Below, in pieces: positions 6,727 to 53,132 of a DNA stretch of 64,000 bases. The notes beneath the pieces are model-generated. The model was not told where the DNA came from. It did no database searches and was given only the letters and a program-made list of their open reading frames with translations. A program made the translations under genes and the position numbers. This stretch comes from Savitreella phatthalungensis. Its lineage: Eukaryota. Numbering within the stretch: position 1 is the first letter of the stretch; the number at the start of each line of letters is the position of its first letter. The stretch lies in NCBI GenBank assembly GCA_051599415.1, contig AP039692.1:434001-498000 (forward strand), given 5' to 3'.

Positions 6727-7998
6727 TCAGCGTCCAAAGATGTCATCGTAGCTAAGGGAGGGCTCAGAGAGTTGTCGGAGCCATACGGGCTTACAATCTT
6801 CCTGGTCAACTCCTTGACCGTCAGTAAAATCGTAATCGCAACCATCGCAACCTTTGCGCTTCGGGCAGTTGAAGAAGGGGATGTGGCGATACCCAATGTC
6901 ATGGAAATAGTGTACTCGTCGCTTGTCCTCAAAAAGTCCGACTGCGACCGAGTGGACAGGCGCATCGCCCCAGCGTTCGTAGAAGAAGCCAGCATCTGCG
7001 TCCAGCTGCTCAATCAAGGCCTCGTACTTCTGGTCGCGCCAGATCTTCATGTTTGCGATCTCGAAATTGGACCAGAAATGGCATGTCGAATAACCGTTCG
7101 CCTCTTGGAAACGGTCCAGCCTAGATTGATCCTTGAGCCACGCAAGAGCGTTATTCTTGTGTAGCCAGTTAGGATGCTTGCGCATAAATTTTTCGACGCT
7201 CGGCCATAGATTGGCGATACTTGCCGGACTGTCGTATAAGCTGATCACGAACCCATAGATTTTGTCATTCAGCTCCATGAAGCGGAAGACATCGTAATCA
7301 ATTTCGCAATAGAAATTGACCTCGGGTTCGACTCGCCAATACCAATCGTAGTCGCGTAGCGCGGGATGGTGATAGAACTTTGCAGAGTTCCACCGACACA
7401 TCTTACGATAGCTCAACAGATGATGATATTTGACATCGGCATCCTGCATGCGATCAAAAGCTTCAGCTAGTTTGACGCGGTCAATACCATCCGGTACAGA
7501 CCAGTGCTGCCAAGGAATGATCTCGAAAGTCGCCTTGCCCGCGGTCGCCTCCGACATTGCCGCACGAAACTCCCGCGAGAACGGCTCATCGTTAAAGAAG
7601 ATCCATGGATATCCGTGTTTAGCATTGAACACGCGCTCGTGGTCTCGAACGCTGCCAAGCGCATTGTCAATTTCGTTATTCCGTACGAGCATGATGATTG
7701 CGGCTTTAGCTTTAATTCCGTCCTTAGGGGGATAAAATAGTGGTCCCTCAACAGAAGTATTGTATTCATGTGCCGGTCTGCCTTGCATAGCAGCTTGTCG
7801 CTGTGCGCTGATGTACTCACTCTCTTCGTGCATTGTCTCGGCCTGCTGCGTGGTCTCGACCGGTGTCGAAACAGCAATGGATTTCGCATCTTCTCTCACG
7901 TGCGCCGCCCACGCGTATGAAGACCATCGGGATGCGGTCAGATAAGCAATGAAGCAGATTGTAGCAACGATAGCGACGATCCTTAAGGCGAAGCGCAT
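6727..7998 (-). CDS. Second GT15 alpha-1,2-mannosyltransferase (KTR family), type II membrane protein
   Basis: N-terminal TM anchor. Motifs YPWIFFNDEPF, YRKMCRWNS, CHFWSNFEI, FFYERWGDAPVHS. Confidence 0.95.
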   Translation of the reverse strand: MRFALRIVAIVATICFIAYLTASRWSSYAWAAHVREDAKSIAVSTPVETTQQAETMHEESEYISAQRQAAMQGRPAHEYNTSVEGPLFYPPKDGIKAKAAIIMLVRNNEIDNALGSVRDHERVFNAKHGYPWIFFNDEPFSREFRAAMSEATAGKATFEIIPWQHWSVPDGIDRVKLAEAFDRMQDADVKYHHLLSYRKMCRWNSAKFYHHPALRDYDWYWRVEPEVNFYCEIDYDVFRFMELNDKIYGFVISLYDSPASIANLWPSVEKFMRKHPNWLHKNNALAWLKDQSRLDRFQEANGYSTCHFWSNFEIANMKIWRDQKYEALIEQLDADAGFFYERWGDAPVHSVAVGLFEDKRRVHYFHDIGYRHIPFFNCPKRKGCDGCDYDFTDGQGVDQEDCKPVWLRQLSEPSLSYDDIFGR

Positions 7999-9298: not shown

Positions 9299-10996
9299 AT
9301 GTCGATCCTGACACGCCTGCTGAGCGATCTGTCGGTTCGGGGATATTTGTCCACTACAGCGCGAGCTTGCACAGCACATGAGCATTTGCAAGAATGGCTT
9401 GGCTTAGTGGAAACTCTCGAAATTGGCTGTGATGACCAAGCAGCAGTGCTGCTTCAGAAGCTCCTCAGTGAACTAAATATCCTCGAACTTGATTCAGTCA
9501 TAAGGGATATCATGGTTTTCATCGTGGAACTTTGGCGACTCCAGCCATCGCTGTCGAGCTCATCTTCCACCAGCTCACCTGTGGCAAATGAGATGGAAAC
9601 CCCAGTGCCGATCTGGTCAGGTGGTGACGCGTCAAGCGTATCATCCGAAAGCGATCTGTACATGGATCACGGCGCCGTAGCAGAATCGGAAATGACTGAA
9701 GCGTCTGTCGACATACAGGGCCCACTACTACGCCGGCCGAACCTCCAGCGAAGACATCGCTGCTGCAGACAACCAAATCTTGACGGGTTCGTTCTGTCGA
9801 TAGCGGACTACGGTCGCGTGGGCTGGGAGAAGAACCCTCCGAGGCTCTCAAAGCCATTGGTCAGATGCGTAGAACGCGAAGCTAGCTCGCTGAGATCTGA
9901 CTTGTCCGCTCTAAAGCGTCGGGCGGACCGGCCGGTTGATGGAAAGGACAACGATCTCACACGTGAGATCCTCGCTGACATGCTGATTCGCAAAGTGCGG
10001 CTACTTGTCTCGGCGACCACCAGCACAGCTGGCATGCTGGATTGCTGTATACGTGTCCGCTACGGGTGGCGCAACGGCGGCGGATCTCATATCGCGCACA
10101 TGCTCTATGCCAATGGACGCATGTCCGGCGTCTGGCAGTGCATTCAACATGCAGATGGCTTCTTGGTTGGCAGTCATGACTATCTGCGTCCATTCTCGGA
10201 GCGCGATGAGAAGACAACCAGCTACCAGAGTACACGACTTGGCGTTCTCGCGGAGCGCGCCGCTGTCCTGCACCGCCATGCACAAAAGCATCGTACAGGC
10301 CGAGAAGCGTTCCTAAGTTACGAGTGGCAAATCGCTATGGCGCTTGAACACTTGTGGAGGCGCATGTGGTCAAATTGGCAGGTCGACAGCCACAGTCTGA
10401 ATCGGCACGGCTCCAGTGCGACAGCAGTGATCTCAATCAAGGGCGCCGAGAAATTGACCGGAATCGGCAGCCTGAGTGCCCTGGAGCTTACAGCAGATTC
10501 CGAAGACGTCCCAGCAGAGGGCCAAATCTCGCTGACATGGACATGCAAGCTTGCATACCTACAAACGGGCCTCAAAATCATGAATCGTCAAAAAGCCAGA
10601 GCTACTCCCTCGCAGGGTGATGGGAGGATATCTCATGCTGTGCTGTTCATGCTTCAGCAGCTGGTCTATTGTCTGATGACTGATTGGCAATTGCGAGCTA
10701 GGAACGATCAAGTCGCAAGTCCTAGCAATAGGAACAGGGCCAAGCATAGCCCTCAGAGTCGCACGACCTTCATCATGGGTCCTTTGGGTCAATGCCTTGA
10801 GCGCGTACTGATACTTACAGAGACAGTGATGAGCCGGATTTCCTTGCATGTTGAACACAACATTGGTCAGGCGCTCCGATCATTGCGCAAAGAGATCGGC
10901 TTTTGCTTGCGTATTCTCGAGGACGGCGACCAGCTCTGCGCAGCAGACTCGATTCTTGCCAGTCATCTTCGCCTCTTGTCAGCCTCAAACTTTTGA
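9299..10996 (+). CDS. Hypothetical protein, 565 aa, no recognised domain
   Basis: Long ATG-initiated ORF filling an otherwise empty gene-sized slot. No motif recognised. Confidence 0.6.
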   Translation: MSILTRLLSDLSVRGYLSTTARACTAHEHLQEWLGLVETLEIGCDDQAAVLLQKLLSELNILELDSVIRDIMVFIVELWRLQPSLSSSSSTSSPVANEMETPVPIWSGGDASSVSSESDLYMDHGAVAESEMTEASVDIQGPLLRRPNLQRRHRCCRQPNLDGFVLSIADYGRVGWEKNPPRLSKPLVRCVEREASSLRSDLSALKRRADRPVDGKDNDLTREILADMLIRKVRLLVSATTSTAGMLDCCIRVRYGWRNGGGSHIAHMLYANGRMSGVWQCIQHADGFLVGSHDYLRPFSERDEKTTSYQSTRLGVLAERAAVLHRHAQKHRTGREAFLSYEWQIAMALEHLWRRMWSNWQVDSHSLNRHGSSATAVISIKGAEKLTGIGSLSALELTADSEDVPAEGQISLTWTCKLAYLQTGLKIMNRQKARATPSQGDGRISHAVLFMLQQLVYCLMTDWQLRARNDQVASPSNRNRAKHSPQSRTTFIMGPLGQCLERVLILTETVMSRISLHVEHNIGQALRSLRKEIGFCLRILEDGDQLCAADSILASHLRLLSASNF

Positions 10997-12180: not shown

Positions 12181-12466
12181 GGAATGCATTGCCTGGCCCT
12201 CGACTCTTGCAGCCAACGTTGTTGCGTCTGATCGAGCTTGACTCAAGACCTGGAAATGTATACACGATCGGGTATGAGCCGCGTTTGCACTCTGGCAAAA
12301 TCCGCTGAAGTGCTCTGAAGTCTTGTCGTCACGAATGTGCATCTTGCCGATTACAATTACGGAGCCGCTATTTCAGCTTCCCTAAAGCCCGGCGCATAAT
12401 ATAATTTAAATTACCTAGCTATAGGGTAAATGGATATATCTGCACGTCGGTCAAGCCCAATATATA

Positions 12467-14385
12467 AAGTCGAAACACGTAAAATTGATCACCTTTAACT
12501 TCGCGCAGAAAATAAAGACGCGTCGAACACGTCACCACCTGCCTTCAGAGCAGCCTACTGCCTCCTACAGCGCCTATGGACGCATTCTATCGCGAGGCAT
12601 GCCTCCAGGCAGCCTTGAACCACTACGCTGCTCGAAGAGACGGCCAGAAACCGTCTCTTCGTGATGCTGCAGCAGAGTATAGCGTTTCACCCAGCACTTT
12701 GAGGCATCGGCTACTGAACGGCAATAGGACTGCCTCAGAGGCTGCCAGAGAGCGCCAAAAGCTGACAGAATCACAGGAGAAGGCTCTGGTAGACATGCTG
12801 CACAGAAGGTCTGCAGTAGGCTATCCTATGACTCCTGGGGAGGTCACTAGCCTAGCAGACAAATTTTTCGAAGCTCGCGGCAGCACAGTGCACCTCGGAA
12901 TGCGCTGGTTTCCTTCCTTCAAATTACGCCATCCTGACATCCACACAGTGCGCAGCAATTGCATCAACCACAGCCGCATGTACGCGGTGGATTCAGCTAC
13001 TGTGGAGGCCTATTTCAAGATCCTAGGCACCTATCTTCGAGAGGAAGCGATCCTGCCTGAGGATGTGTGGAATGCTGACAAATCTGGCCTCATGATGGGC
13101 CGTTCCCAGTCCTCCCAGGTGGTGGTTCCACTGCTGCAGAAGGGTAAGAAGCGCGCTGTGGCAGCAGACAATGGAGATCGCGAAACAGTCAGCTGTATGG
13201 CCTGTGTTTCTGCCGCAGGTGCTCATTTACAGCCAGTTCTGGTGTTCAGTCGTACTCAGGCAAAGAGAGAGGCCTGTGGGAAGGCTGTGGAGGCAGGGCT
13301 GGCGCCTCCTGACGAGGCAAAGTACCTAGGCACGCCTGGAAACGCTGTACGCGTGTTTCACTCGAAAAACGGCTTCCTCACGTCCCAGTTAATTGTCCAG
13401 TGGCTACAGGAGGTCTTCCTGCCTGCCACAGCGCGAGATCCACCGAGGACGCGCGTCCTAGTGATTGATGGCGCCTGCGCTCACGCCACGCACGAGGTCA
13501 TGTACGAATGCGCAAAAAATGGCGTCAAACTGGTTTATCTGCCTGCCCACAGCTCCCACCTCACACAGCCGCTCGACCCAGCCGTGTTCTCGCCTTTAAA
13601 GAACTACTATGGGCAGGCAGTGAAGGTACTCAGCCGCAGGCTAGCTGGCAGACCCTGGGGTCGCGAAGAATTCATCTCGATCTTTCTCGGCGCCTGGCAG
13701 AAGGCGCTGAACCGCCAGAACATCACCTCTGGCTTCAGACAAGGAGGTATCTGGCCCTATGACCCACAGGCGGTGCGCCGAAGCGTGCTCTCCTACAACA
13801 ATTCAGTCGAACCTGCCTCAGAAGCTGCGAAAAAGCCAGAAAGGCCTGCCTTGGCCACCCTGACCACCAATGCAGCCAATACACTGCCAAAAACGGTCAA
13901 AGCGACACGCGCAACACTGCAGGCAGCTGGAAAAGAGAGATACGAGGTGCTAGAGCTAGCACTCGCAGAGACGCGCGAAAAGATCGCCTCATCGAGGAAC
14001 TGAGAACTGCTGCAGAGCAGCACCAGTTCATGATCGCCGATAGGGACAAGACTATAGCAGCCCTGCAGGCCAAGGCCTCGCGTCCTAGGGCAGCCTTCAA
14101 GGCACAGCAGCTGGCTAGAGGAGTGGACTGGCTAAAAGGCTTACTCGGCGAAGACTACACAGATATGAGGTGGCACTGGATCGCAGCGAAGGCGAGGGCT
14201 GCTAAAATTGAGCCTAGAGCATGGATAGAGGCACAGGACCAGGCTGCCTTACTTTCAGAGCTAGCGCTGGTGATTCCATCGAATAGCGAGCAATCTACGG
14301 AGAAGGTGTCTTCGAAGAGGCGACAAAAAAAACGTGTGTGAAATTGATTAATCTTAAAGGTGATCAATTCTAGGTGTAGCGACTT
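12467..14385 (+). mobile_element. Tc1/mariner superfamily pogo/Fot1-like DNA transposon, 1919 bp
   Basis: 32-bp imperfect TIRs 12467-12498 and 14354-14385 (28/32 identical), TA on both sides (12465-66 and 14386-87), encloses a transposase. Confidence 0.88.
12576..14341 (+). pseudogene. Fot1/pogo transposase (HTH-psq, CENP-B HTH, DDE_1), split by a frameshift near 13930-14003
   Basis: SLRDAAAEYSVSPSTLRHRL, LTESQEKALV, NADKSG, VIDG...PAHSSHLTQPLD (DD35D spacing). ORF1 stops at 14003. The -1 frame continues (KDRLIEELRTAAEQHQFMIADRDK...) to 14341. Confidence 0.85.
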
Positions 14386-14480
14386 TAGTTTGATAGTATG
14401 ACGTAGCAGATACCGACCTGCTCGCGGGCTATCTCTGTGGTCACTAATGTGAGTGCTGACAGGCAGAACGCTTGATCTTC

Positions 14481-27214: not shown

Positions 27215-29506
27215 ATGAGTCAGGCACGTCATGGATCGTCCTCGGCAGGCGGCACGCTCGAGCAGCAATTACGGCAATCCATTGAAGAACACATGCAAAT
27301 ATATCGACAACAAGTCGAACCTCGAACGCGAGCCGCGGGTTTAAGTCGCATTAAGCTTTACGACTTCATAATCCATCGCGACCGCAGCCTACAACGACGC
27401 AAACGTGTGCTCGTCGAGAAAGCGATTGATGCTCTTTGTCGGGATCTTGACACGGAGGAAGCAGGGCAGAAACTGGCCGACGTTACCCTGATAGAGAGCG
27501 ACAATGACGAATCGCATGCACATGACAATTCCTTACGTGATGGTCGGGGCATGAATGAGCTCATCACATCGACATGGGAGGCGAAGATGAACAAGGGCCC
27601 CGGAGAATCTTCAATCTTGGGATCCGGCATGTCTGCCACTTCCATGTCGAAGCGGAGAGCGCTATCTGATGCGACACGAAAAACAGCCAAACGCAACAAA
27701 GCACGGGAAGATCACCTGCCAATGAGCTTCGTCAGTCTACAAAGCCTCGGTGGTATCGATGACTGTATTGAGGAGGTGCTTGAAACAATCGTGATGCCGT
27801 TGCGTCATCCCTCAATTTACACTCGCATTGGCATATCTACACCCCGAGGAGTTCTTCTGCATGGGCCTCCGGGTTGTGGTAAGACGCTTTTGGCGAACGC
27901 TGTCGCTGGTGAAGTTGGTGTTCCCTTCATCTCCGTATCAGCTCCTGCCATCGTGTCGGGAATGTCCGGCGAGTCGGAGCGCAAACTGCGGGATATTTTC
28001 GAGGAAGCTCGCTCCTTGGCTCCTGCTATTCTGTTTATTGACGAGATTGATGCAGTGACACCCAAAAGAGAGAGCGCACAACGCGAGATGGAAAGACGCA
28101 TTGTTGCACAGCTTCTGACTTGTATGGACGATCTATCTTTGGAGAAAACCGATGGAAAGCCCGTCATTGTGATCGGCGCTACGAATAGGCCAGACAGTCT
28201 GGACGCAGCTCTTCGACGGGCTGGCCGGTTTGATCGAGAGATCTGCCTCGGCGTGCCGAGTGAAGAAGCGCGAGTCAAAATTCTGAATGTTTTGACAGCC
28301 GGTCTTAAACTTGCGAACGATGTAGACCTGATCGAGCTTGCCAAGGCAACGCCGGGCTACGTTGGTGCTGACATTAAGGCGCTGTTGGCCGCTGCTGGTG
28401 TTGCAACGATCAAGCGGATGCTGCATAAATTCGCGATGATCCCCGGACCGCCCTCGGGCGAAACTTGGGATTCTGCTATGACGGACGACGGCAACTCGTC
28501 CGCGAAGGCCCAGCCGAGTGGACATGACATGTTCCGGCGATTCGTTCTCGAGGAAGGGCATCATTTGACGGACGAGGAAATCGAGTCTGTTTGCATCGAT
28601 AAGACGGACTTCGATGCCGCGCTCAAGCTTGTTCAACCGTCATCAAAGCGTGAAGGTTTCACGACGGTTCCCAACGTGAGCTGGACCGATATTGGAGCTT
28701 TGGAAACCATCCGAGGCGAGCTCCAAATGGCAATTGTCCAGCCCATTCGTCGACCTGAATTGTACCGACAGGTAGGCATCAGCGCTCCAGCAGGTGTTCT
28801 GCTCTGGGGCCCTCCGGGCTGTGGAAAGACGCTGCTAGCGAAGGCGGTTGCGAACGAATCCAAAGCGAATTTTGTTAGCATCAGAGGCCCAGAGCTGCTC
28901 AATAAGTATGTCGGTGAGTCTGAAAGAGCGATGCGGCAAGTTTTTGCTCGAGCCCGCGCAAGCGTGCCATGTATTATCTTCTTCGATGAGCTCGATGCAC
29001 TGGTGCCAAAACGCGACGACGCCTTATCGGAGTCCTCTGCACGTCTCGTCAATACGCTTCTGACTGAGCTCGATGGTTTGGAGGATCGCAATGGTATCTT
29101 TGTCATTGCAGCCACGAACCGGCCAGATATAATCGATCCCGCGATGCTGCGTCCAGGACGTCTCGATAAACCTCTCTTTGTCTCATTACCCTCGGTTGAC
29201 GAGCGGCACGAGATTCTACAGACGCTCTCCCGGAAGACGCCTCTTTCTGATGATGTCGACTTAAATTTGATCGCACGTGATGAACGGTGCGCCAATTACA
29301 GTGGCGCAGACCTGGCAGCTCTGGTCCGGGAGGCCTCTGTCACCGCGCTGCGCCGAATGGTGTTCGACTCATCATACGAGGTGACTAGCAACGAGACTGT
29401 CACGGTGACAAGCTGCGATTTTGAGAATGCTCTCATCACCGTTCGACCGAGCGTCTCGGATGTACAGCGGCACAGTTACGAGAGCCTACGACGACACTAT
29501 AGCTAG
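27215..29506 (+). CDS. RIX7: Ribosome-biogenesis AAA+ ATPase Rix7/NVL
   Basis: Two AAA modules (GPPGCGKT twice), [27 protein letters not shown]. Confidence 0.93.
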
Positions 29507-31584
29507 ACGACCTCAGCAACGATTTCACTTGCTTGCGTCAATGAGGCCACCATCCTCTGGCACTCCTTGCGTCTCTGAATCGTGTAGTCGCTCTCTTTGA
29601 GCAATTCATCCAGCACGTCGCTCTTGTAGAGCTTTTCGAGCAGCTCTCGTTGCATGCCTTCTTTGCAGTGATGGACTAGGTTTAACATGATGCTTTTCGG
29701 GACCATGTCGATCATTGTGCGCTTCACAATGTTGAAATAAGAGTTGATCAACAGCTTGATAACTTCGGTCTCAACTGTTTCGCGTTCCGAGAGCGTGCCA
29801 GAAGCTTTGAGCACCGGCGGTGGAGGGTCCATGGCTGCCATTTTTTTTTTGTTTTTCGTCGCGAAAAAGCTGCCAAAAAAGCCCGTATTCTCAGGCTCCA
29901 GTGTCTGCGACGTCTGTTGCTGTGCCATCGGTAATGGCTTTCCTGTCTTCGGATCGACCTGGACCGGCTTTGCAGCATTACGGTTTTCGTTGACGATCGC
30001 CATGGCTCGATGGCCGTTCAGAAAGTCGGGGTGACCGGTATTGATATAGCAGGCCTCCATTGAGACGAGATCCGAGACAAGCTTGTTTGTCGGCGTCATC
30101 GCAGCCTTGAAGAACGCGATCACCACGCTGTGGAATTTCTCCTTGAGCGCCGGATATCGCTTGAACACTGGTTTTGCCAATAGCTGTGTCAGGATGCGAG
30201 TGAGCTCATCGTAGACCAGCGTTGCACACTTCAGACTCGGGTCTTCAAATCGGCGGATCTGTTGCTTGATAATGACTTCGAAAGCGGCCGTGCCGACAAA
30301 TAAGGCGGGGCTCGAGCCTGACGAATTGTACAGAATCGTTCGTATGTCGACGTCTTTTACAAGGTCGAAAGGATCGACAGCTTTGACGCCACCTGCATAC
30401 AACTCATGAAATACAAAGCTGATGCGTGCACCCCCGGACAGCTCCATAGTCGAGAGATCTTGATTCTGTCCATCAATAGCGGTGCGAAACTCGTTACAGA
30501 ATTCCGTTATCACGTTCAGCACCATGTTGGAGCTATTGCCTAAAATCGAGTCTCCAAGTGTGCTGAGCTCGGCCGAATACTTCGCTAGGGATGCTCCGAT
30601 TTTCGCTTTGATCTCTGGCAGTGTGTTCCGGATGTGGTGCATGAGGATCGTGTTGAGCTTGCGTGCCAAAAAAGGTGTGCCGCAATACTGGGCCTTGGAT
30701 CTATAGGCAGGGTGATTCTCAAAGAACTCACGCTCGGCGTCGAGCGCGCTCGAGATCGCCTTCTGGTTCTCGATATCTCGCTGACCTCTGTTAACTACAG
30801 GTACGTAGCCAAGTCTGAGCGGAATGACACGACCTGCAAGAATATCAACCACGTCCGTGCCAGCATCCATCAGATCAATCTTGGTTAAAACGCCGATCGT
30901 GCGTGTTCCCTCCGGATCGACCTCTCTTGCAAGCTTCAGACCATCCGAATTAGCTAGATCTGTGTTGCCCGAAGTCACTGCCAAAATGATGGCATTTGGA
31001 CGCGTGATGTACTTCAGAATCATCTCTCGGATCTGTTTCTCTATGTCCTTCGGCTGATCCCCAACAGGCACCTTAGTAAGGCCTGGCAAGTCCACAAGTG
31101 TCAATGTGAGTACCTTCGGCGAGTATATGCGCAAGTTGATCGGCACAGCGGATATCCCTTGCCCCTTGCCAGTCTTTGCCTCCGTCTCGCGAACGATCTC
31201 GTTCCGGATATCGTTGAAGTTGTGGAATTTTTTGCCCGGCAGATGGAGAAATTCACCCCATTCATCCGCGTTAGCTTTGGCATCAGAAGACGCATCGATC
31301 AGAACAGCCGCTCCGGTCGTTGAGCCTGATTGTGGCTGCATCGCGGCTGATCTATTGATAAGTTGCAAGACTAGAGGTCGGCGAGTGACAATGCCTGTTC
31401 CACGAGGTAGAAAGTCGCGACCAACAACATTCTCTAACACCGAGGACTTCCCACTGCTCTGAGATCCTATGACGGTTATCTGTGGCAAGTCGACTGGATT
31501 GGTTACGCCGACAGTAGCAAATGCATCCTGCAACCTGTTGATCGTGCGGATCAAGCCTGGGTCGGATATTCCAGAGCCAGACAT
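29503..31584 (-). CDS. VPS1: Dynamin-like GTPase Vps1
   Basis: [17 protein letters not shown], middle domain and GED ([18 protein letters not shown]). Confidence 0.93.
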
Positions 31585-32027: not shown

Positions 32028-33290
32028 ATGGACCAGCATGGAGATGGAGATCACATACGGGATTTTGTGCTCTTGCGCAAGCTTGGATCAGGCTCGTTTG
32101 GCACGGTCTGGAAAGCGTTGTCTCGCAAGACTGGTCAGGAGGTTGCCATCAAGATGATCGACCTTGAGCAATCCGATGAGGATATCATGGAACTTCAAAA
32201 GGAGATAGCTCTCTTGAAGTCTTGCGACACGCGCTTCGTGACGGAATATCACGAGTGCTTCGTCTATCAAGCCCAATTGTGTATTGTCATGGAGCTGATG
32301 GCGGGCGGATCAGTTGTCGATCTGGCTGGCTCTCTCTCGGAAGCACAAATAGCGCGGATCTGTAAAGATACCCTTACTGGCTTAGAGTATCTTCACAGTC
32401 AGGGTCGTATACATCGAGACATCAAGGCGGCCAATGTCTTGATTGGCGCCGAAGGGACATGTAAGTTAGCCGATCTTGGCGTTGCTGCGCAGGTATCGTC
32501 ACAACGATCGCAGCGGCATACCTTTGTAGGTACTCCGTTCTGGATGGCTCCGGAGGTAATTGAGCAGGCAGGATACGACACACGTGCGGACATCTGGTCA
32601 CTCGGCATTACGGCTATTGAATTAGCTACAGGCACTCCGCCATTGACCCATCTCCACCCTATGCGCGCTATCTTCCATATTCCCAAAAATCCGCCGCCAT
32701 CACTCCCATCATGTTTTTCCGCAGCTTTTCAGGATTTCGTGGGATGCTGTTTGCGAAGGGATCCGCGGACCAGGCCCGCGGCTCGAGAATTGCTTTCGCA
32801 TCGGTTTCTAAATGCAGCCTGCGATCCTGGCGCGCTTGTCACTGTCGATCGGAAAATCTCATCTCTCCCTGTCGATAAGCTCTCGAAGACGATCGATGCT
32901 AATATCGCAACGCTGCGCCCATCGCCGGCTCAGCCCAAAGATTCATGGGGAACTTCGTGGCCTGACGCTCGATCAAATCCCGCTCCAGCCGAAATCAGTG
33001 CGCTCGAGATGCAGTTTCGCAAGGATTATCCTGAAGAGTCACTCGAGCTCGTTCGCCCATTCCTTCGGCACATCGAGGAGATCTCATGCCGCGATCGCCA
33101 GCTCCTGGAGAAGTTACTGCGCTTCAGCACCGAACAATTGGACGACGGCAATCGAGGTATACCGGCACGCACTGTTCGCGAGCCGACTCAAGGGCGATCT
33201 GTAATTTGCCCAGAACCCGTTGCACCGATAAGCAGGCTTCTATACCAACGATGGCTCGAAGACATCCAGCGGAGATGGCGAGGAAACTGA
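32028..33290 (+). CDS. Ste20/GCK-family Ser/Thr kinase (Sid1/Sps1-like)
   Basis: GSGSFG, VAIK, HRDIKAAN, DLG, FVGTPFWMAPEVI. C-terminal LLYQRWLE motif. Confidence 0.9.
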   Translation: MDQHGDGDHIRDFVLLRKLGSGSFGTVWKALSRKTGQEVAIKMIDLEQSDEDIMELQKEIALLKSCDTRFVTEYHECFVYQAQLCIVMELMAGGSVVDLAGSLSEAQIARICKDTLTGLEYLHSQGRIHRDIKAANVLIGAEGTCKLADLGVAAQVSSQRSQRHTFVGTPFWMAPEVIEQAGYDTRADIWSLGITAIELATGTPPLTHLHPMRAIFHIPKNPPPSLPSCFSAAFQDFVGCCLRRDPRTRPAARELLSHRFLNAACDPGALVTVDRKISSLPVDKLSKTIDANIATLRPSPAQPKDSWGTSWPDARSNPAPAEISALEMQFRKDYPEESLELVRPFLRHIEEISCRDRQLLEKLLRFSTEQLDDGNRGIPARTVREPTQGRSVICPEPVAPISRLLYQRWLEDIQRRWRGN

Positions 33291-34163
33291 AATCCGCTAT
33301 AATCTGGTTGCCATGACACAATGGCGGTCAGTCGGTCTGTTCTCGCCGAATCTTCTGGCTCGGCGTTGTTGATGATTTTCGCGATGGCCACCTGAGCGCC
33401 GTACGACTGCTCATGTGAAACTTCTGCACGATGAATGAGATGTCAGCCAGAGATTGTGATTGACCGGGCCATTATCTCCCGATTTGTCAGGTATGACGAC
33501 TTGCCTCATGCTAATTCACGCAGGATCGCAAAAAGTAGCGCCACCCGGGAGCACCAGATAGGACCGCTCGGACAGGGATGGCATGAGAAGACTGAGCGGA
33601 AGCCAGACGGGACCATATTGCGTGACCAGACTTGCCTTCCGAAACACAAAACGTCGGACTTCGCTCGCGCAGCTTCCTACTGCCTACGTATGCATATCTC
33701 TTGCGATTGACCACCCCGGCCATTTCGTGACCTCCCTCGTCGATTTTTTCAGCACTCGCATTTAACCTGAGTCTGTGCTCCGGTCTATGTCATCCGGATG
33801 GCCATGATTTCGAGACTATTGCCTCATCGTCTTGAGAATCTTAGGCGGGTGTCCACATGCTAGACCATACAGTAGCACTTCGATTGGCTGTCTGCCGGGT
33901 TGTATCTTGCTGCCTTGCTATTGCTCCGATCTAGCTCAAATATCCACTTCATTCGGAACAATTTGCAGGACATTTGCCTGGGCCTAAAAGGGAAGGGCAA
34001 AGCATCATCGATACAAACTAGACACTACAGGCTGAATACACGATGCGGGTAGGGTGTCTTTCAGCAGTGTATGAATCCAGAAAGCTTTTGTATCTTGTAG
34101 GCAGGCTTCACAAGTCATGCAGACAGGTTCTAGACATATTGCGCCGGGATTCAAGGGGTCAAT

Positions 34164-34788
34164 TTGTCATGACCGCTCAAGTCATATGTGCTGATTGTAC
34201 ACACTCATACACAATGCTGTCACTCCTTCAATCACTCAGATTATCCAGGTATGTATGACAAGATTGTAGCCCCATGTGGAGCCATCAAATAGTTTATGTT
34301 CTGTGCTACATCCAGTGTTGCAGAGAACAATTGCAGGATCCAAGGATAACAGACAAAGCAACACAGATACAATCAAGACAAGACAAGAAGACTGTTGCAG
34401 AGGACGCAAGAGCAACAGACAAAGCAATATGGGCACAAGACAGACAACACAGGAGGACACAGACAGAGTCCACCAAGGAACACAAACAGACACAAACAAG
34501 CACAAACAGACACAGAGGGACTACAAGAGACGGCCTAGGCGGTGGCACCAACCATGCTATACCTGATACAGACCACAACTCTGCTGACATGGCAGGTTGA
34601 TGAGGGATTGCAAGAGGACGCAACATGCTGTACAGAGACAGCGTGCCAAACATCACCACTATCAGGACCTAGCACAGAACAATACTATTTGACAACTCCA
34701 TACAGGGCTACTATCTTGTCATATGCAGACCGAGTGATTGCGGAAGTGACAGTGTTGTATACAAACCATATACAATTGACCCGGGCCA
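34164..34788. repeat. Left arm of a 625-bp inverted repeat
   Basis: Reverse complement of 35706-36330 (paired coordinates sum to 70494). Mirror ORF translations in the track are identical. Confidence 0.97.
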
Positions 34789-35040
34789 CAGAGGTGGTCG
34801 CAACACACATATGGAATTAACACCTTGTCATACATAGACCGAGTGATTGTAGGAGGGACAGCGTTGTGTACAAGTGTATGCAATCGACCCGGACGACTTA
34901 GCGCTCGTGACATATATGATATGAGCATACCTTGAGAACATGCTTTCCATGAGAACAATCAGATATCATCCGTTTGAGGCAAATCAACACAATTGTTGTT
35001 GGATACAACGTCGGAGTTTCACGCTATATTCATGCATAAA

Positions 35041-35054
35041 GTGTGTGTGTGTGT
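35041..35054 (+). repeat. (GT)7 microsatellite in the inverted-repeat core
   Basis: gtgtgtgtgtgtgt read directly. Confidence 0.85.
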
Positions 35055-35445
35055 CTTTGATGCGATAGCCTTTGGCCGAGCATCTGCGAAAGCAGGAACA
35101 AAATGGATTCGGAAAGCCGCAGCATATCAAATTTGCTGTTTTTGACCTTTCAATTTAGATTGCACCTGATTTGCAATCATTTTGGCAAATACTGAAGCAT
35201 TGTCAGAGCTTTGATCCACGTCGTAATTTGTCAGGTCAGTTGTTTGCTTGCGTGCCGCTTTGTCCAGAATTTGTTTTGATGGGGCTGGGTGAAGAGATAG
35301 TATCGCGGAATCCCTGACCAGAATGTTGAGACAGATGGATAAAGCTGTCTTGATTGTCCATTATGACCAGATGCATCCTGCTCTATTCCTGCGACAATTT
35401 GACGCTCTGAACACCACCGGTCCGGCCGGTGTCGCGACCACTAGG

Positions 35446-35955
35446 TGGCCCGCGTCGATCGTATACACTCCATATACCATACCGCTACTCTCGCAATCAC
35501 TCAATCTACATATGACAAGATGATCGCCCCGTGTGAAGCTGTCAAACAGTACTGTTCTGTGCTAGGTCCTATCGATGCTATCTGGGTACCATCTCCATAC
35601 AGTATGCTGCATTTTCTTGTACCTCATTTAATCTGCCACATCAGCAGAGTTGTGGTATGTCTCAGATATAGCACAGTAGGCAACACCGCTGTCACGGCCG
35701 GTCAATGGCCCGGGTCAATTGTATATGGTTTGTATACAACACTGTCACTTCCGCAATCACTCGGTCTGCATATGACAAGATAGTAGCCCTGTATGGAGTT
35801 GTCAAATAGTATTGTTCTGTGCTAGGTCCTGATAGTGGTGATGTTTGGCACGCTGTCTCTGTACAGCATGTTGCGTCCTCTTGCAATCCCTCATCAACCT
35901 GCCATGTCAGCAGAGTTGTGGTCTGTATCAGGTATAGCATGGTTGGTGCCACCGC
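35446..35955 (+). repeat. Degenerate ~260-bp tandem duplication
   Basis: 35446-35705 versus 35706-35955 share, in order, tggccc, gcaatcactc, catatgacaagat, tgttctgtgctaggtcct, tcagcagagttgtggt, tatagca. Confidence 0.85.
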
Positions 35956-36330
35956 CTAGGCCGTCTCTTGTAGTCCCTCTGTGTCTGTTTGTGCTTGTTT
36001 GTGTCTGTTTGTGTTCCTTGGTGGACTCTGTCTGTGTCCTCCTGTGTTGTCTGTCTTGTGCCCATATTGCTTTGTCTGTTGCTCTTGCGTCCTCTGCAAC
36101 AGTCTTCTTGTCTTGTCTTGATTGTATCTGTGTTGCTTTGTCTGTTATCCTTGGATCCTGCAATTGTTCTCTGCAACACTGGATGTAGCACAGAACATAA
36201 ACTATTTGATGGCTCCACATGGGGCTACAATCTTGTCATACATACCTGGATAATCTGAGTGATTGAAGGAGTGACAGCATTGTGTATGAGTGTGTACAAT
36301 CAGCACATATGACTTGAGCGGTCATGACAA
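35706..36330. repeat. Right arm of a 625-bp inverted repeat
   Basis: Reverse complement of 34164-34788. No mismatch seen by eye. Confidence 0.97.
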
Positions 36331-36755
36331 TAATCCTGTCATATGCAATACCAACGATTGCTAGGAGCGACAGCCGTGTGTACAATTCTGTATACGAGCA
36401 GTCCAAAGACTAGACCATATGCAACATAGGGTCCTGCACTTCATTGAAGCGTGAGCACGACTGTCACGCCTGTCCATGACACGACGTGACAGATATCATC
36501 GTTGTGCCAAGGCACCACTTGATCAACTACAGATATTAATGGAAACCTGATCTGATATCGCTCACTCGGCCTGAGCAGAAAGTCGGCCTGCATGGAGTCG
36601 GCTTCACATCTGCCGTTGACGACTCTCTCAAATGCTCTGAGCGATCGGACTACGGTTGACACGAGCGCGCAACTGGGCAATCGAGCCAGATACGTGAGGT
36701 TGTCCAAGCCATGAGGCGTATTCCTGCAGCGCAGTAGACCTTAACACTGACACAT

Positions 36756-37625
36756 TCAGCTTCGATGCCGAGCTTCATGCGAAAAATTCGGCAGAGCTGC
36801 AGCCATCGCGGCATCAATCGCTTCTCTGATGGTGTCCTCAGATGCAGCGGCATCGGGAGGAGGAGTGACAGCTGCTTCCATGTCGCGCCGGGATCGTCTT
36901 ACTTCCTCCCGAAGCTCTGCAATCTTAGCTTTAAGTGTACAGGAGCGTTTGGCTAAGTCGCAGGCGATGCACGAATTCGAAAGCAAATAGGGTCGCCAGT
37001 ACGAATACTGATACCGCCAGGCACGGCAGCGACCACACGGAGCAAAGCGGACAACGTGCGGACGATCCATCGTACTCGTCTCCGGTGGCGCATAACCTGC
37101 GCGTCTGGCACTTTCCTCCTGAGTTCGAGCCCGTTCGCGTTCTCTGTCGGATAGGTCAAGCGCAAGGATCGCTCGCCCGTTGGACAAATCTTCGACTTCT
37201 TGAATTTTACCGTCTGGAAGCTTGCCGTCTCTCAGAATGCGGCGTTCTTGAAAGGTGAAATCACTCAAGGGCTTTCCGTTTACGAGCTCCTGAACCAGGA
37301 GATTGTTCGCTTGAGTGGCTAATTGCCGTGCGGTCGGGGCAGCGCGTTTGCCCGCTGCATTGCCTGGACGTTTGGGTTGAGAGCCCGAGTTTGGAACTTG
37401 GTATGCATCTATATTATCAACAGAAGGATACGGTTCCGGCGTCCGCGACGAGGCTGAAGGTCTTGTTAAAGCATTCTGATGTGAAATGTTGTGCTGCAGC
37501 GAAGACTGAGCAGCGGTCACGTCGGCACTCCTCACAGTTTCAGGAACGGCCGTGCCGGACTCGAATGCCGCGTCATCCTGGATTCTGACGGGATCAACCG
37601 CGGTCGATGACGTCTTTTTCGCCAT
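36756..37625 (-). CDS. Hypothetical protein with a degenerate Zn(II)2Cys6-like motif and coiled coil
   Basis: ATG at 37625 (MAKKTSS...). C-x2-C-x6-Y-x11-C-x2-C-x6-C followed by LKAKIAELREEV. Confidence 0.55.
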   Translation of the reverse strand: MAKKTSSTAVDPVRIQDDAAFESGTAVPETVRSADVTAAQSSLQHNISHQNALTRPSASSRTPEPYPSVDNIDAYQVPNSGSQPKRPGNAAGKRAAPTARQLATQANNLLVQELVNGKPLSDFTFQERRILRDGKLPDGKIQEVEDLSNGRAILALDLSDRERERARTQEESARRAGYAPPETSTMDRPHVVRFAPCGRCRAWRYQYSYWRPYLLSNSCIACDLAKRSCTLKAKIAELREEVRRSRRDMEAAVTPPPDAAASEDTIREAIDAAMAAALPNFSHEARHRS

Positions 37626-38107
37626 ATGATCACCTTCTCGCAACCACAAGCTCGCGACCCTTATAGTCGGTCCCGGTGCTCATCCGAAATTCCTGTTCCA
37701 CCGGTGAATCGGCGATCCTCCTCCAACAATCCGCGAATACTCGCGATATCCGGATAGTCCGGATGATACGAGAATTGAATTAGCTAAATCGATCGATGCC
37801 CGGTACTGATATAATCCATTTCGGATGCTCGACTAAAGGGTGCAGCTTTCATCACGTGCTCGTCGCAGTGGAACTTCCGATTACTGGATAAATTGAAGCA
37901 AGCTTGCGAACTTCAGACGTGGTCGACCAGGCGATACAGTTTCGTCTACGCAGCTACCATAGCATGCATGCTGTGCAGAGACTTGCTAGTCAGGAAATGT
38001 CGATGATATATGTGCATAAATTCTATACAGTATACAATATAACATGGCTGTGGCAACGTGCCTGCCTTCAGGACAGCCTTGAATATCCTTCGGTACATAA
38101 CCTGAAG

Positions 38108-41100
38108 CTACAGCCACGGGCTCCACAATTGGTCCATTTGCGCCAAATTCCTTGGGCTGACTGATTGGGATATTAGGTCGATGATAGTCTGGTGTGCTGG
38201 TAGATTGCCCTGTGCGACCTGGGAGAGTGATGAAGCGCGTCTGACGATAAGATCCACATTTGCAGCCACCTTTTCGCGCAGCTGTGTCTCCTGAGTGACA
38301 GGGCGATGCTGCTGGGTGAACCAGGTGATGAGTTCGTCACGCACGAAAATAGACAAATGTTGGTCGAGCTCAAATGCCGGTTCCGTCAAGCAACGGGCAA
38401 TGGCCATGATAGCACAGGAGTATACTCCTTCCACACCAATGGACCCCATGAGGGTTGAGATGGTTGGCGTGAACCGGAATGGGACCGCTTCGCCGTTGTG
38501 AAACACAGGATTGTTCTGAGCCATTCCAGGCAGGATCTCCGTGCCCCAGACGAGACCATTCCTCCGGGAAATGAACAGCTTGTGCGGGAAACGGTTGTTG
38601 ATGTTCATGACATAAGTCATGAATGTCAGACTTGCGTATTGGAGGGAGAAATGCTTTCGGAAACGCCAGAAATCGCTGTACGCGGCGAAAGATTGCTTGA
38701 AGAAATCGAGAACAAGTGTGTCGGGAATCAGTTCACGACGGATCTCCTCGAGCACATCCACTTTGGCTTTGATTAGCTCTTGTTTGTTGTTGGCCAATTC
38801 CCCCAGCTTGCTGATCCGATCTGCAGCCAGACGGAGCGGCTCATCCTTATGCTGCTTCGCATGAGCACAGTAGTCCTCGTATATCGACTGAAGTGAAATG
38901 TAAGCCGGATCATCCTGAACAATCCGAATATGAGGAGCGAGCGGTACCGCGGCCGGCAAATTGAATGTTAGTCCACGCTTGCGTGATTCTTTCCGGCGGG
39001 ACAAAACACCCGACAGGATGCGGAACAATTGTATGATGCGCTCTTCACGTCGACAGTGCCGTGCCGCAGGATATTGGATGGCGAATGGATGGAGGCTGCC
39101 ATCGTGTCCACGAATAGTAATGCGGCGGTAGCAAATGCCATGCCCGCGCACTACATCCAGGGTAGGCATGAAGCGGTCGATGCGAACAAAGTCGTTGTTG
39201 TTGTCACGATGTTGCAAATATTGACCCGGAATCTCGACTTCGTCGAACTTCTGGTACTGGAATTCGCTCAAGTATGAGGAGAATTGCTCCAATTGCTGCT
39301 TCGTGCTACGACGATCCAAAATCATCTCGAATTTGTCCCGCCATTTACGAAGCTTCGACACGTAATCTTGCAAATTAGGCTTCTCTTGCACAAATTCCTT
39401 CTCGAAAGCGGCCTTGATGTTCTTTGGGAGGACACTATCGGCGAATCGCGTGATATTGGCTTGAGTTGCAGGCGGGAGCTTCGTGTCTTCCGTGACGGAA
39501 CCAAGTCTGCCAATATATTGCACACCGTCGTTCAGTAGCGCAACAATGAGTCTGTAGGCATCTTCGTCCGCTTGACATTTGAAGCGCTGTTGAATTTGAT
39601 CCACCAAAGTCTCCATTGACAAAGCAAGCAAAGGATACGCCGTTTTGAGAATAGCCATAATCTCGTGCTCCCAAGGCTGACGATTTTGCAGGGCAGCTGT
39701 TGGTCGTGGACTATGTGACGCAAGGCTGGCCGCATTGGCACCGTTCTCCTTCTTTGTTATGATTGATGCAGCATTCGCCGAAAGCGGCACATCCTGCGAT
39801 TTCGTTTGCGAGGACGTCACACCTGAGCCAGCCACGCCAGTCGCACTCGCAAGTCCGTTGTTAGAAGCGCCGGGTGTCGCTCCGGAAGTAGTAGTGGCGA
39901 TAGTAGAATGCGCCGATGCGTTTGGCGCCGGGTCGGACTTGCTGGCATCTGATTTGCTCGCAGCTGCGGAGGCGGCGGCAGCCGCCGCTTGTTTCTTGAT
40001 CACGGCGTAGTCCTCCTTCGTTGTTCGAAGTTGGAAATGCAGTGCTTGTGGAAATGTTTTTGCAATGCGGATAAGAATCTGACGAGCATGCCGTGCCTCT
40101 TTATGTGATAGAGACGTGAGCAATTGTGGGATGAAAGTGATCCAATACCAGGTGGGCACTTCGCCCTTGTACGAATCGAATGCGCCAGAGATGGTGCCGT
40201 GCGAATCATCAAGGCTCAAAAGCCAAAGCACTCGGGACAGCATCTTTCGTGCTCGTCCATTCTTATAAAGTCCCGCGGCCTGTAAATAGCAACTGACAGC
40301 ATTGCCTGCCTTGGTCAACTCAGTCGGATCCTCCTGGAATAATCTGTCGCTATACTGGCCCCACTCTGCCCATGCTTTTGGCAGCATGAGATCAATCTGG
40401 ATGGCCGTTGCGAAGGCCTGATTGGCTTCATCGTTCAATTTCATCTTAGCTAGGAACATGCCCTTCAGTGTGAAAAATTCTGCCTTCTGCTGTGTGCCGA
40501 AATACATCAAGTTTGTGTTGCTGATGACCTCTAAGCCCATGCCGAGCTCGTTGGGATTCTGAAAATGGCACTTGGCCTGCTCTCGCAGTTTCAAGAAGGC
40601 TTCTTGGATCTCGATATTAGGCAGGGTGTAGATCTTGGTGAGCTGGTTGATACACACCTCGGGAAGCTGGTGCTTTCGAGCTACATGTGCGAAGCGATTT
40701 ATGATCCATGCTGTTTCGTGATAGCCCCTGTAAGCAAAAGACGTGGCGTTAGTGCTCGCGGCCGCGGCGTTTGACGCCTGCAGTGTCGGGACGAGGGGCA
40801 AGTAGACGCGATTGATAGACGCGAAGATAAGCTGTCTCCATGCCACGAGATCTGACCACGAATTGATGTCGTCACAGAAATTTGGGAGGCGTTCTCGCCA
40901 CGTCTGTAGAATGTGCTTCAGTTCGTGTGACTTCGCTTCCAAATTTTGTGCGGTGGTGTTCGCGAGACTGTGATAGATTTGACTAGCTTCGTGCAATTCG
41001 ACAAACTGCTGGAAGGCTTGTAGAAGAGGGAGATGTGTCTGCGAGACCATCGGGGGAAGCTGATGCCACTTTCGCAGAGCGAGTTGCATGCCATCGTCGC

Positions 41101-49854: not shown

Positions 49855-49890
49855 CATTCATCCGCTTGCTGCATTCATCCGCTTGCTGCA
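49855..49890 (+). repeat. Exact 17-bp tandem duplication (cattcatccgcttgctg x2)
   Basis: Read directly, upstream of TRA1. Confidence 0.9.
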
Positions 49891-51814: not shown

Positions 51815-53132
51815 GGTCGTCGCTTTACGATCGCCCTGCTGGGCTGATATGGCAATATTTGACTGCGTTGTCGACCTTCGGCAATGCAGCTATGCGAGAA
51901 CCCCTAAAACTTGTGTTCACACAGGGTATGCGAACACCAGAATGTTTCGTGGAAGGAAAGGTGATCGACGCCGGTGCTCTTTGCCAGGTCGTGCTAAATA
52001 CGCGGTGACTCGTTCCAAGCTTGCCGTTCTTGCTTCACTGCGTTGAGATTCGTGATCAGTTACCGGGCTCACGCCGCATTTAATTGACAGACCTGCCTTG
52101 GAACTTGGAATTCTCAGAGGGCTGGCTTCTCAATCGAGAAGTTGGAAACCCACCAAATCGATGCCGCAGCGTACAAAAGACACCGAAGCTGAAAGTGAGC
52201 GCACAATCTAGCATGCTCGAGATCTGAAATGTGGTCAACTCGCTCAGCGTGGGGTGAATACATGGCATTGACTTTAGCCGTATCAAATGGCGGCTGGAAG
52301 CCGATCTTACGGCAAGTACTATTTATAGCACAAGACACGTGCGAGCAGGTCGCGCGATGCGAAGCTTGATTGGCCCTCTCGACTCTGTAGTCTAACCTTC
52401 TTCTGCCGCTCTTTCAAACACGCAGCATCGCGATACAGCTCGAAAGTACATCATAAGGACAGCCTCTGCCTCGAGCTCTCCTTTCACGCCGCTGTTTGCG
52501 TGTGGGTATCCACTCTGCAAAACCCTTTCGTGCGATAGCGGACAATCGTCAGCCGTGCAGAGCTTGCCAATTCGGCTTTGATCCGGACAGAGAGCTTAGA
52601 AACCGATGAAGTAGCATGACCTTGTGTATGACGAATTTTGACGCTTATAAGTTTTGCTCAGGCCTCTAACGAGGCTGACTGGCAGGTGTGGAATGACCGT
52701 TCCAGTGACAGTAGTGTACGACAGTAGTGTACGACTGGAAGACCCATGTGCAAGCAGCCAGGAAGGGTCGGCACACCTGAGATCGCAGTGGATACCTTCA
52801 GAGATCTGGGCAATGCTCATGTGATCGCCACACTGTGGCTGTGCCTCGATCCGCGCCCACTTAGAATCCGAATCTGAGACCAATACCAGAGTACGTGAAC
52901 CAAATCGCTATGCACAGTCGACGATGATCTGACCCTTCGCAGCAACTTGAATCGAGCGACCCCCCTCGCGAGTGTGTCGGCGAACATTTCCCAGCTTCGC
53001 TGCGTTTGTGTGCAGCAGATCTAGAGCGGCTAATCTTGGGCGCGTGCGCGTAGAGAAGTGGACGTGGGGAAGCGCACAACACACTCGTCACCCTCCGAGG
53101 ACGCGTTACGCGTCACTGCGCGACGAGACACC

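What the first reader, a model, noticed from the sequence alone, without database searches (positions are those of the whole stretch)
34164..36330. Perfect 625-bp inverted repeat around a 917-bp core: candidate compact regional centromere or invertible locus
Seen: arms 34164-34788 and 35706-36330 appear identical. There is no flanking TSD (left ...ggggtcaat, right taatcctgt). The locus sits in the longest stretch of the window without a conserved gene (33291-38107). Related repeat units nearby are heavily diverged while the arms are identical, implying recent duplication or ongoing homogenisation. Known: a unique core flanked by inverted repeats is the centromere architecture of S. pombe (imr-cnt-imr), Komagataella phaffii and Candida tropicalis, and such cores can flip. 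Inference: a very small IR-type centromere or flip-flop DNA in a poorly studied fungal lineage.
Basis: partly seen in the sequence, partly recalled or inferred. Interest (0 to 1): 0.85.

Follow-up and report, generated by a model that had tools for sequence, protein, structure and literature searches.

The report
Mirrored patch in retrotransposon-end cluster
The perfect inverted repeat is real, but it is a recent back-to-front copy made inside a pile of decayed retrotransposon-end-like repeats of a plant-associated yeast-like fungus; that pile might mark a centromere, which is untested.

Summary
The 625-bp arms are identical and present in two copies. They are not unique DNA: 99.5% of each arm and 398 of 917 core bases are pieces of a ~410-430-bp repeat with TGT...ACA ends, like a solo LTR. 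Tens of copies exist in the genome. At least seven independent fragments are nested in 2.5 kb here, none elsewhere in the window. The identical tract starts at one unit's terminus and stops 16-17 bp short of another's. This fits homology-anchored copying (gene conversion or template switch) between opposed copies and explains the missing target-site duplication. The copies are eroded at CpG (17 of 23 polarised sites). The host is Taphrinales-like. An LTR-cluster centromere, as in S. japonicus or Ty5 yeasts, remains open (about 30%), since no Taphrinales centromere map turned up in my searches. Core orientation is unresolved.

The parts
34164..34788 (.). Left arm; inferred recipient of the copied tract
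   Evidence: 100% reverse complement of 35706-36330. Recipient status is inference: the candidate target-site pair around unit D is complete only on the right.
35706..36330 (.). Right arm; inferred donor
   Evidence: outer 300 bp at twice single-copy depth with 0 differences in X1.
35690..36101 (+). Unit E: near-complete 412-bp solo-LTR-like element, TGTCACG...CTGCAACA (biological 5'-3' orientation not determined)
   Evidence: other copies leave the alignment before 35690 (X3, X4) and about 19 bp after 36093 (X1, X4).
34393..34805 (-). Unit B: opposed copy; 34393-34788 is the mirror of E, 34789-34805 is its own different terminus (TGTTGCG...)
34165..34311 (+). Unit A: mirror of F; the identical tract begins one base outside its TGTCA terminus
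34316..34392 (-). Mirror of the far-end piece 36102-36178
34806..34912 (-). Unit C: first ~106 bp of another copy, cut off by B
   Evidence: 76 identities, 23 transitions, 6 transversions against E.
34913..35425 (.). Single-copy part of the core; no homology to unit E, no protein or RNA family found
   Evidence: Depth 50.4 in X1; alignment to E no better than shuffles, 140 and 168 of 300.
35430..35689 (+). Unit D: first 260 bp of a copy, TGTCGCG..., directly followed by E; preceded by CCGG
   Evidence: 193 identities, 55 transitions, 11 transversions against E.
36102..36178 (+). Second far-end piece ending CTGCAACA, followed by CTGG; read as the far end of D
   Evidence: CCGG/CTGG is the only target-site candidate found and is weak evidence.
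36183..36329 (-). Unit F: first 147 bp of an opposed copy
   Evidence: 101 identities, 30 transitions, 8 transversions against E.
36331..36426 (-). Unit G: first ~97 bp of an older copy, cut off by F
   Evidence: Score 59 against shuffle maximum 28.5, 0 of 300.
33963..34045 (-). Old far-end relic in the left flank
   Evidence: Scores 40 and 44, 0 of 300 shuffles each; but other window chunks reached up to 46 against full E, so modest.
32028..33290 (+). Left neighbour: STE20/YSK-like kinase
   Evidence: Pfam Pkinase; names of hits.
36756..37625 (-). Right neighbour: orphan 289-aa ORF, single copy; no link to the repeat shown
   Evidence: Only itself found; no Pfam family; atlas lead DUF3716 at 0.84, below the useful level; depth 45.5.

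Best explanation
The locus is a nest of decayed solo-LTR-like elements (about 410-430 bp, TGT...ACA ends) of a family with tens of genomic copies, inserted into one another in both orientations and eroded by C-to-T change at CpG. Two opposed copies about 0.9 kb apart (B and E) served as homology for a recent repair event (gene conversion or template switch) that copied 625 bp from right to left, from base 17 of E out to the terminus of F. Shown: identity, copy structure, termini, clustering, mutation bias. Inferred: retrotransposon origin, direction and mechanism of copying, cytosine methylation as the cause of CpG loss. The arms could let the core invert by ordinary recombination, with no known consequence. 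This reading is silent on whether the cluster is also a centromere.
For: Family: 229 contigs of X1 laid, 160 of them under 95% alike; summed depth 1,708-3,633 over the arm against 45.5-50.4 single-copy; per-site ratio 15-147, median 60, over 35 sites (summed depth is only a rough guide to copy number). Family also seen in X3 and X4 of another study. Seven TGTYRY termini. Size and ends match fission-yeast Ty3/Gypsy LTRs, 392-407 bp with TGTCA...TGACA ends (10.1101/2022.12.06.519325, passages). Tract ends sit at unit termini: outer end one base outside TGTCA, inner end 16-17 bp short of two different termini. Clustering: profile hits only within 33963-36426 at E<=1 (the profile was built from these copies, so only the absence elsewhere counts); crude chance of seven copies in this one gap 3e-5. 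Copies abut one another at other loci: 5 of the 10 listed X1 joints plus one in table 5c (15 of 28 joints shown). Mutation: 131 transitions to 33 transversions among five local copies against E; 17 of 23 sites where the window has T/A and other copies C/G are at CpG, background 0.42, p=0.002; arm CpG observed/expected 0.27, the window minimum, genome-like 1.07.
Against: No gag-pol, primer-binding site or polypurine tract was found, so LTR status rests on size, ends and nesting; a short-ended DNA element (Ginger-like) is not excluded. Only one target-site candidate (CCGG/CTGG, one mismatch); E has none. F does not detectably continue across D into the core (89 and 56 of 500 shuffles reach the score), and the left flank does not rebuild cleanly, so the nesting order is partly conjecture. 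In pairwise local comparisons only 67 of 131 transitions lie in a possible CpG context. The polarised count uses 35 of the 40 listed sites (5 in unit D dropped) and 198 more were not shown. A few differences between the arms could be hidden by contig simplification.
Confidence: 0.75

Rival explanations
1. The cluster is a small retrotransposon-cluster centromere (compatible with the best explanation): the element targets centromeric chromatin, accumulates at about one site per chromosome, and the inverted repeat is a by-product or a later structural feature.
For: Extreme local clustering and nesting at other loci; longest gap and lowest-GC 1-kb bin of the window, 0.454; no tRNA or 5S gene to explain targeting. 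About 60 copies at 2-3 detectable per cluster would give 20-30 clusters, the order of a chromosome count (Pneumocystis has 16-17); this is rough inference. [quoted passage not shown]
Against: No CENP-A, Hi-C or synteny evidence; no syntenic relative among 80 loci. The GC dip is shallow and follows from CpG loss. Solo LTRs need not be centromeric: 63 in S. osmophilus show no regional enrichment. Pneumocystis centromeres lack repeats. Gene-dense genomes pile insertions into any tolerated gap.
Confidence: 0.3
2. IR-type regional centromere as in K. phaffii or S. pombe imr-cnt-imr, where near-identical arms around a central core are the centromere structure on every chromosome.
For: Geometry is similar: K. 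phaffii has 2-kb arms around a 1-kb core kept nearly identical, with natural core inversions (PMC5010909). Weak hint that the repeat is shared by another strain: an X3 contig of 297 bp covers the outer arm, ends 4 bp before the branch point and has depth 4.7 against 2.3-3.7 for single-copy pieces; if shared, zero arm-arm differences would have p about 0.02 without homogenisation.
Against: K. phaffii arms and cores are unrelated between chromosomes; here they are family fragments and the arms are a third of the size. X3 depth is under 5 and its core contig starts at 34794, so it does not prove the left junction. One-per-chromosome was not testable (no genome held).
Confidence: 0.1
3. A foldback or Mutator-like DNA transposon with 625-bp terminal inverted repeats.
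For: Long perfect arms; TGT ends also occur in Ginger DNA transposons, and Ginger1 targets CCGG/ACGG with 4-bp duplications (PMC2836005).
Against: No duplication at the outer ends; outer arm has only two copies; arms are patchworks of nested units; no transposase in the core.
Confidence: 0.03
4. A programmed invertible switch (mating-type or phase variation).
For: Identical inverted arms are the substrate for flip-flop switching in methylotrophic yeasts.
Against: No gene found in the core (8 frames in and around the locus without Pfam hit; one spurious repeat-protein hit); no recombinase among 10 window proteins scanned; both neighbours turn their 3' ends or unrelated ORFs to the locus.
Confidence: 0.04
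5. Assembly artefact: one arm duplicated, or two similar arms collapsed to one sequence.
For: X1 may be the source data; contigs drop variants; the window lacks 6 bp at 39665 that X1 and X2 both have, so the assembly is not error-free.
Against: Outer arm depth is twice single-copy and both ends of the core contig enter the arm.
Confidence: 0.05

Closest known systems
Solo LTRs of fission-yeast Ty3/Gypsy elements (Tosmo1-3, Tcry1, Tj1)
   Same: About 400 bp, TGTC... and ...ACA ends, tens of solo copies per 12-Mb genome.
   Different: Here tightly nested and CpG-eroded; S. osmophilus copies are not regionally enriched and have 5-bp duplications; no coding part seen here.
Retrotransposon-cluster centromeres (S. 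japonicus Tj; Ty5 clusters of D. hansenii, O. polymorpha, Sa. ludwigii)
   Same: Cluster of LTR fragments in a gene-free gap; Sa. ludwigii clusters are as small as 1.2 kb.
   Different: No CENP-A evidence, no tRNA cluster, count per chromosome unknown; a perfect internal inverted repeat is an added feature.
K. phaffii IR centromeres and S. pombe imr-cnt-imr
   Same: Near-identical inverted arms around a ~1-kb core.
   Different: Arms 0.6 kb, not 2 kb or more; built from a multi-copy family, core partly repetitive.
Ginger1/Ginger2 DNA transposons
   Same: TGT ends; CCGG/ACGG next to some termini; one 4-bp duplication candidate.
   Different: Ginger inverted ends are 40-270 bp; this unit has about 7 bp; no transposase.
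CpG-biased C-to-T erosion of fungal transposons
   Same: Transition excess with a CpG signature is described in other fungi (PMC4352252, abstract).
   Different: Taphrinomycotina were scored as free of RIP, although T. deformans and Sa. complicata carry RID- and DIM-2-like genes (PMC7882544).

Membership tests
Solo LTR of an LTR retrotransposon | TG...CA ends with a short terminal inverted repeat | tested here: met
   Seven TGTYRY termini and two ...GCAACA far ends; one X4 loose end closes in CGCGACA.
Solo LTR of an LTR retrotransposon | Several hundred bp, multi-copy | tested here: met
   412 bp for E; tens of copies.
Solo LTR of an LTR retrotransposon | 4-6-bp target-site duplication | tested here: inconclusive
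   One candidate, CCGG/CTGG; none for E.
Solo LTR of an LTR retrotransposon | Parent element with PBS, gag-pol and PPT | not testable with these tools
   No genome held; no copy in metagenome contigs.
IR-type regional centromere (K. phaffii, S. pombe imr-cnt) | Near-identical inverted arms around a central core | tested here: met
IR-type regional centromere (K. phaffii, S. pombe imr-cnt) | Arms and core specific to the locus, not dispersed repeats | tested here: not met
   99.5% of the arm and 398 of 917 core bases are family pieces.
IR-type regional centromere (K. phaffii, S. pombe imr-cnt) | One per chromosome; CENP-A on the core | not testable with these tools
   No genome, no chromatin data.
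Retrotransposon-cluster centromere | LTR fragments concentrated in one gene-free gap | tested here: met
   Within the 64-kb window only.
Retrotransposon-cluster centromere | One cluster per chromosome; CENP-A occupancy | not testable with these tools
   Only indirect joints at other loci.
Retrotransposon-cluster centromere | Flanking genes centromere-linked in relatives | tested here: inconclusive
   No syntenic locus among 80; Pneumocystis supplement unreadable.
Foldback/Mutator-like element | Target-site duplication at the outer ends | tested here: not met
Foldback/Mutator-like element | Dispersed copies of the termini | tested here: not met
   Outer 300 bp at two-copy depth.
Ginger DNA transposon | 40-270-bp terminal inverted repeats | tested here: not met
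   About 7 bp between the two ends of the unit.
Programmed invertible locus | Gene or promoter in the core whose context changes; both orientations in cells | tested here: inconclusive
   No gene found; orientation cannot be read from contigs.

The most novel reading that the evidence does not exclude
This is a Taphrinales centromere: a CpG-methylated, self-targeting LTR cluster, one per chromosome, that has just acquired perfect inverted arms by gene conversion. It would be a living intermediate between retrotransposon-cluster centromeres (S. japonicus type) and inverted-repeat centromeres (S. pombe type), and evidence of repeat-directed cytosine methylation in a subphylum where it has been reported absent.
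Probability: 0.25. Interest if true: 0.75.

Novelty: new member of a known kind. Interest (0 to 1): 0.4.

Why it matters
As a converted patch in an LTR pile it is ordinary genome turnover. Two things lift it. First, I found no mapped Taphrinales centromere, and the Pneumocystis authors say more Taphrinomycotina are needed to infer the ancestral state; this repeat gives a cheap probe: map it and see whether it marks one site per chromosome. Second, CpG-biased erosion points to cytosine methylation of repeats. One preprint says methylases are absent from Taphrinomycotina, two papers list RID/DNMT4-like genes in T. deformans, and I found no report of such erosion in Taphrinales.

Tried and rejected
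Whole genome: none held. Rfam: one sub-threshold hit in the locus, E 0.39, and none at gathering score in the window. tRNA: none at default score, with or without introns; relaxed scores gave only implausible calls. Reading frames of arms and core: no Pfam family; the 77-aa open frame of the core hit one tandem-repeat protein whose score comes from summed weak repeats, rejected. Family motif in metagenome contigs: 0 matches. Kinase-anchored loci: 80 kept of 522, none close; only one carried a match to another tested neighbour (Rix7-like, 39%), none to the gap DNA. Orphan ORF as gag or part of the element: single copy, no homologue. First idea that each arm is a MITE with diverged ends: replaced once one search showed where the family begins and ends. 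A shared primer-binding site after the far end: the 0.83 agreement of three contigs is what a shared 19-base tail with unrelated flanks would give, so not claimed. F continuing across D: not significant. No RNA holder listed. Earlier findings: nothing for this genome, sequence or relatives. Papers with nothing usable on the question: PMC12543289, PMC7862722, PMC3248453; seen as a listing only.

Full report
Observation. The arms 34164-34788 and 35706-36330 are exact reverse complements over 625 bases with 917 bases between them. Nothing else in the window comes close. There is no duplication at the outer ends. The gap is the longest between the long ORFs I listed (3,465 bp; next 1,949 bp). In run X1, which may be the source of the assembly, the core is one contig at depth 50.4 that enters both arms, the outer 300 bp of the arm is one contig at depth 101.2 with no differences that ends at 36330, and the right flank is at 45.5. 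I laid only 34789-40788, so the left outer junction is inferred from that branch. This is the pattern of two real copies. It cannot exclude a few hidden differences and cannot fix the orientation of the core.

Host. CRM1 of the window is 84% identical to Protomyces lactucae-debilis, 75% to Pneumocystis, 67-69% to most others; the best named fungal hits of the neighbouring kinase are Pneumocystis. The host is Taphrinales-like. The window lies on a 714,618-bp contig and X1 totals 12.7 Mb. The labels TRA1, VPS1 and RIX7 for neighbours are recalled from their sequence and size and come from no call.

What the arms are made of. An alignment of the diverged units showed that each starts with TGTYRY. 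Laying runs at 80% likeness showed that 35690 to about 36093 is a genome-wide family: 229 X1 contigs were laid (30 at 99% or more, 39 at 95-99, 74 at 90-95, 86 under 90), with summed depth 1,708-3,633 against 45.5-50.4. Per-site ratios run from 15 to 147, median 60 (35 sites). The tool warns that summed depth is no copy number, so I say tens of copies. Other copies diverge from the window before 35690 and run about 19 bases past 36093, one ending CGCGACA. The unit is therefore about 410-430 bp with roughly 7-bp inverted ends. Fission-yeast Ty3/Gypsy LTRs are 392-407 bp with TGTCA...TGACA ends (10.1101/2022.12.06.519325, passages). I read the unit as a solo LTR. No coding part, primer site or purine tract was found, so this is a likely label, not a shown one; Ginger transposons share TGT ends and CCGG targets but have 40-270-bp inverted ends (PMC2836005, passages).

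Anatomy. Left to right: an old far-end relic (33963-34045, minus); A (34165, plus); a far-end piece; B (34805 back to 34393); C (34912 back to 34806); 513 single-copy bases; D (35430-35689); E (35690-36101); a far-end piece (36102-36178); F (36329 back to 36183); G (36426 back to 36331). Family pieces cover 99.5% of an arm and 398 of 917 core bases. D is preceded by CCGG and the far-end piece is followed by CTGG, the only target-site candidate; with several pairs tried it is weak. Profiles built from these copies find nothing else in the window at E<=1. Seven independent fragments in one gap, none in 16,073 bp of other gaps, has a crude chance of 3e-5. Of the 10 listed joints with X1 support (15 of 28 joints were shown), 3 reflect D/E likeness, 2 are shorter variants and 5 show one copy abutting another at other loci; table 5c adds one. 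Nesting looks like a habit of the family.

How the perfect repeat arose (inference). The identical tract begins one base outside the terminus of A/F and stops 17 bases short of B's terminus and 16 short of E's, which differ from each other. Transposition would copy an element to its ends and leave a duplication. Copying between opposed homologous units, by gene conversion or a template switch, leaves what is seen: a tract bounded by homology, a remnant of the old terminus and no duplication. The right side keeps the CCGG...CTGG bracket around D, so it is the likelier donor. Against a tidy history: F does not detectably continue across D, and the left flank does not rebuild. Whether homogenisation is ongoing is open. 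X3, from another study, differs from the window at 10 of 1,670 flank bases, 8 of 498 core bases and 2 of 297 arm bases; its arm contig ends 4 bp before the branch point at depth 4.7 against 2.3-3.7. If both arms predate the split, zero differences would have p about 0.02, but at this depth the premise is only hinted.

Mutation. Five local copies differ from E by 131 transitions and 33 transversions. At 23 sites where the window has T or A and other copies C or G, 17 are CpG (background 0.42, p=0.002; 35 of 40 listed sites used, 198 not shown). Arm CpG observed/expected is 0.27, the window minimum, against 1.07 overall. The pairwise count is weaker: 67 of 131 transitions in a possible CpG context. 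Methylation followed by deamination is the usual cause (established knowledge; CpG signatures in fungal elements, PMC4352252, abstract). The literature disagrees on this lineage: methylases absent from Taphrinomycotina (PMC10327204, passages); T. deformans has DNMT4 and UHRF1 (10.1101/2023.01.30.526367, passages); T. deformans and Sa. complicata have RID- and DIM-2-like genes but no detectable RIP (PMC7882544, passages). Supplements of these papers were not seen and may bear on this.

Centromere or not. K. phaffii centromeres have 2-kb arms around 1-kb cores, unrelated between chromosomes, with natural core inversions (PMC5010909, passages); C. parapsilosis old centromeres also have inverted repeats (PMC7263194, abstract). 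The geometry here is alike but locus-specific sequence is not met, so I do not file it there (0.10). [quoted passage not shown] Clustering, nesting elsewhere, the longest gap and the lack of a tRNA target fit. Nothing tests it directly, no syntenic relative was found, S. osmophilus solo LTRs are not regionally enriched and Pneumocystis centromeres lack repeats. Taphrina genomes carry about 1% LTR elements and the paper does not locate centromeres (PMC4007546, passages). I put it at 0.30. An unchecked earlier finding in another yeast (e1-7784846) reached a similar reading for a retrotransposon palindrome; it is an analogy, not support.

Rejected. Foldback or Mutator element: no duplication, two-copy termini, no transposase. 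Programmed switch: no gene in the core and no recombinase found. Artefact: depth and graph show two copies.

Verdict. Real feature, ordinary mechanism: a recent inverted copy inside a CpG-eroded nest of solo-LTR-like repeats (0.75). New member of a known kind, interest 0.4. The bold reading, a Taphrinales LTR-cluster centromere gaining inverted arms, has probability about 0.25 and would deserve 0.75; mapping unit E on the assembly would largely decide it.

Noticed in passing
window 12465-14387: Pogo/Fot1-like DNA transposon: intact 475-aa ORF with HTH_psq, HTH_Tnp_Tc5 and DDE_1 domains, 34-bp inverted ends at 88%; CpG observed/expected 0.75, milder loss than the LTR nest.
   Followed up: partly
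window 39665: Runs X1 and X2 both carry 6 extra bases at full depth inside the TRA1-like gene: the window probably has a two-codon assembly error.
   Followed up: partly
window 34789-40788, run X2: Unexplained depth pattern: core 3-7, right flank 106, repeat family up to about 52,000, against 50, 45.5 and about 3,300 in X1. Its flank contig of 13,306 bp would end just upstream of the TRA1-like gene. Library type is not on record; an RNA library or hairpin loss during amplification could both explain it.
   Followed up: no
window 36756-37625 (-): Orphan 289-aa ORF with two CxxC pairs and a likely coiled coil near the C-terminus (read from the sequence); no homologue, weak atlas lead DUF3716.
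   Followed up: partly
window 34137-34163: Possible 27-bp remnant of a further unit start directly outside the left arm, sharing TTGT with the junction; read by eye, not tested.
   Followed up: no
window 9299-10996 (+): 565-aa ORF without any Pfam family.
   Followed up: no
window 632-698 and 6944-7010: 67-nt inverted pair at 79% inside two ORFs on opposite strands; probably paralogous genes.
   Followed up: no
window 29503-29506: Two convergent long ORFs (27215-29506 plus, 29503-31584 minus) overlap by 4 bases at their stop codons.
   Followed up: no
window 49855-49890 and 52707-52735: Exact short tandem duplications of 17 and 13 bp in intergenic DNA.
   Followed up: no
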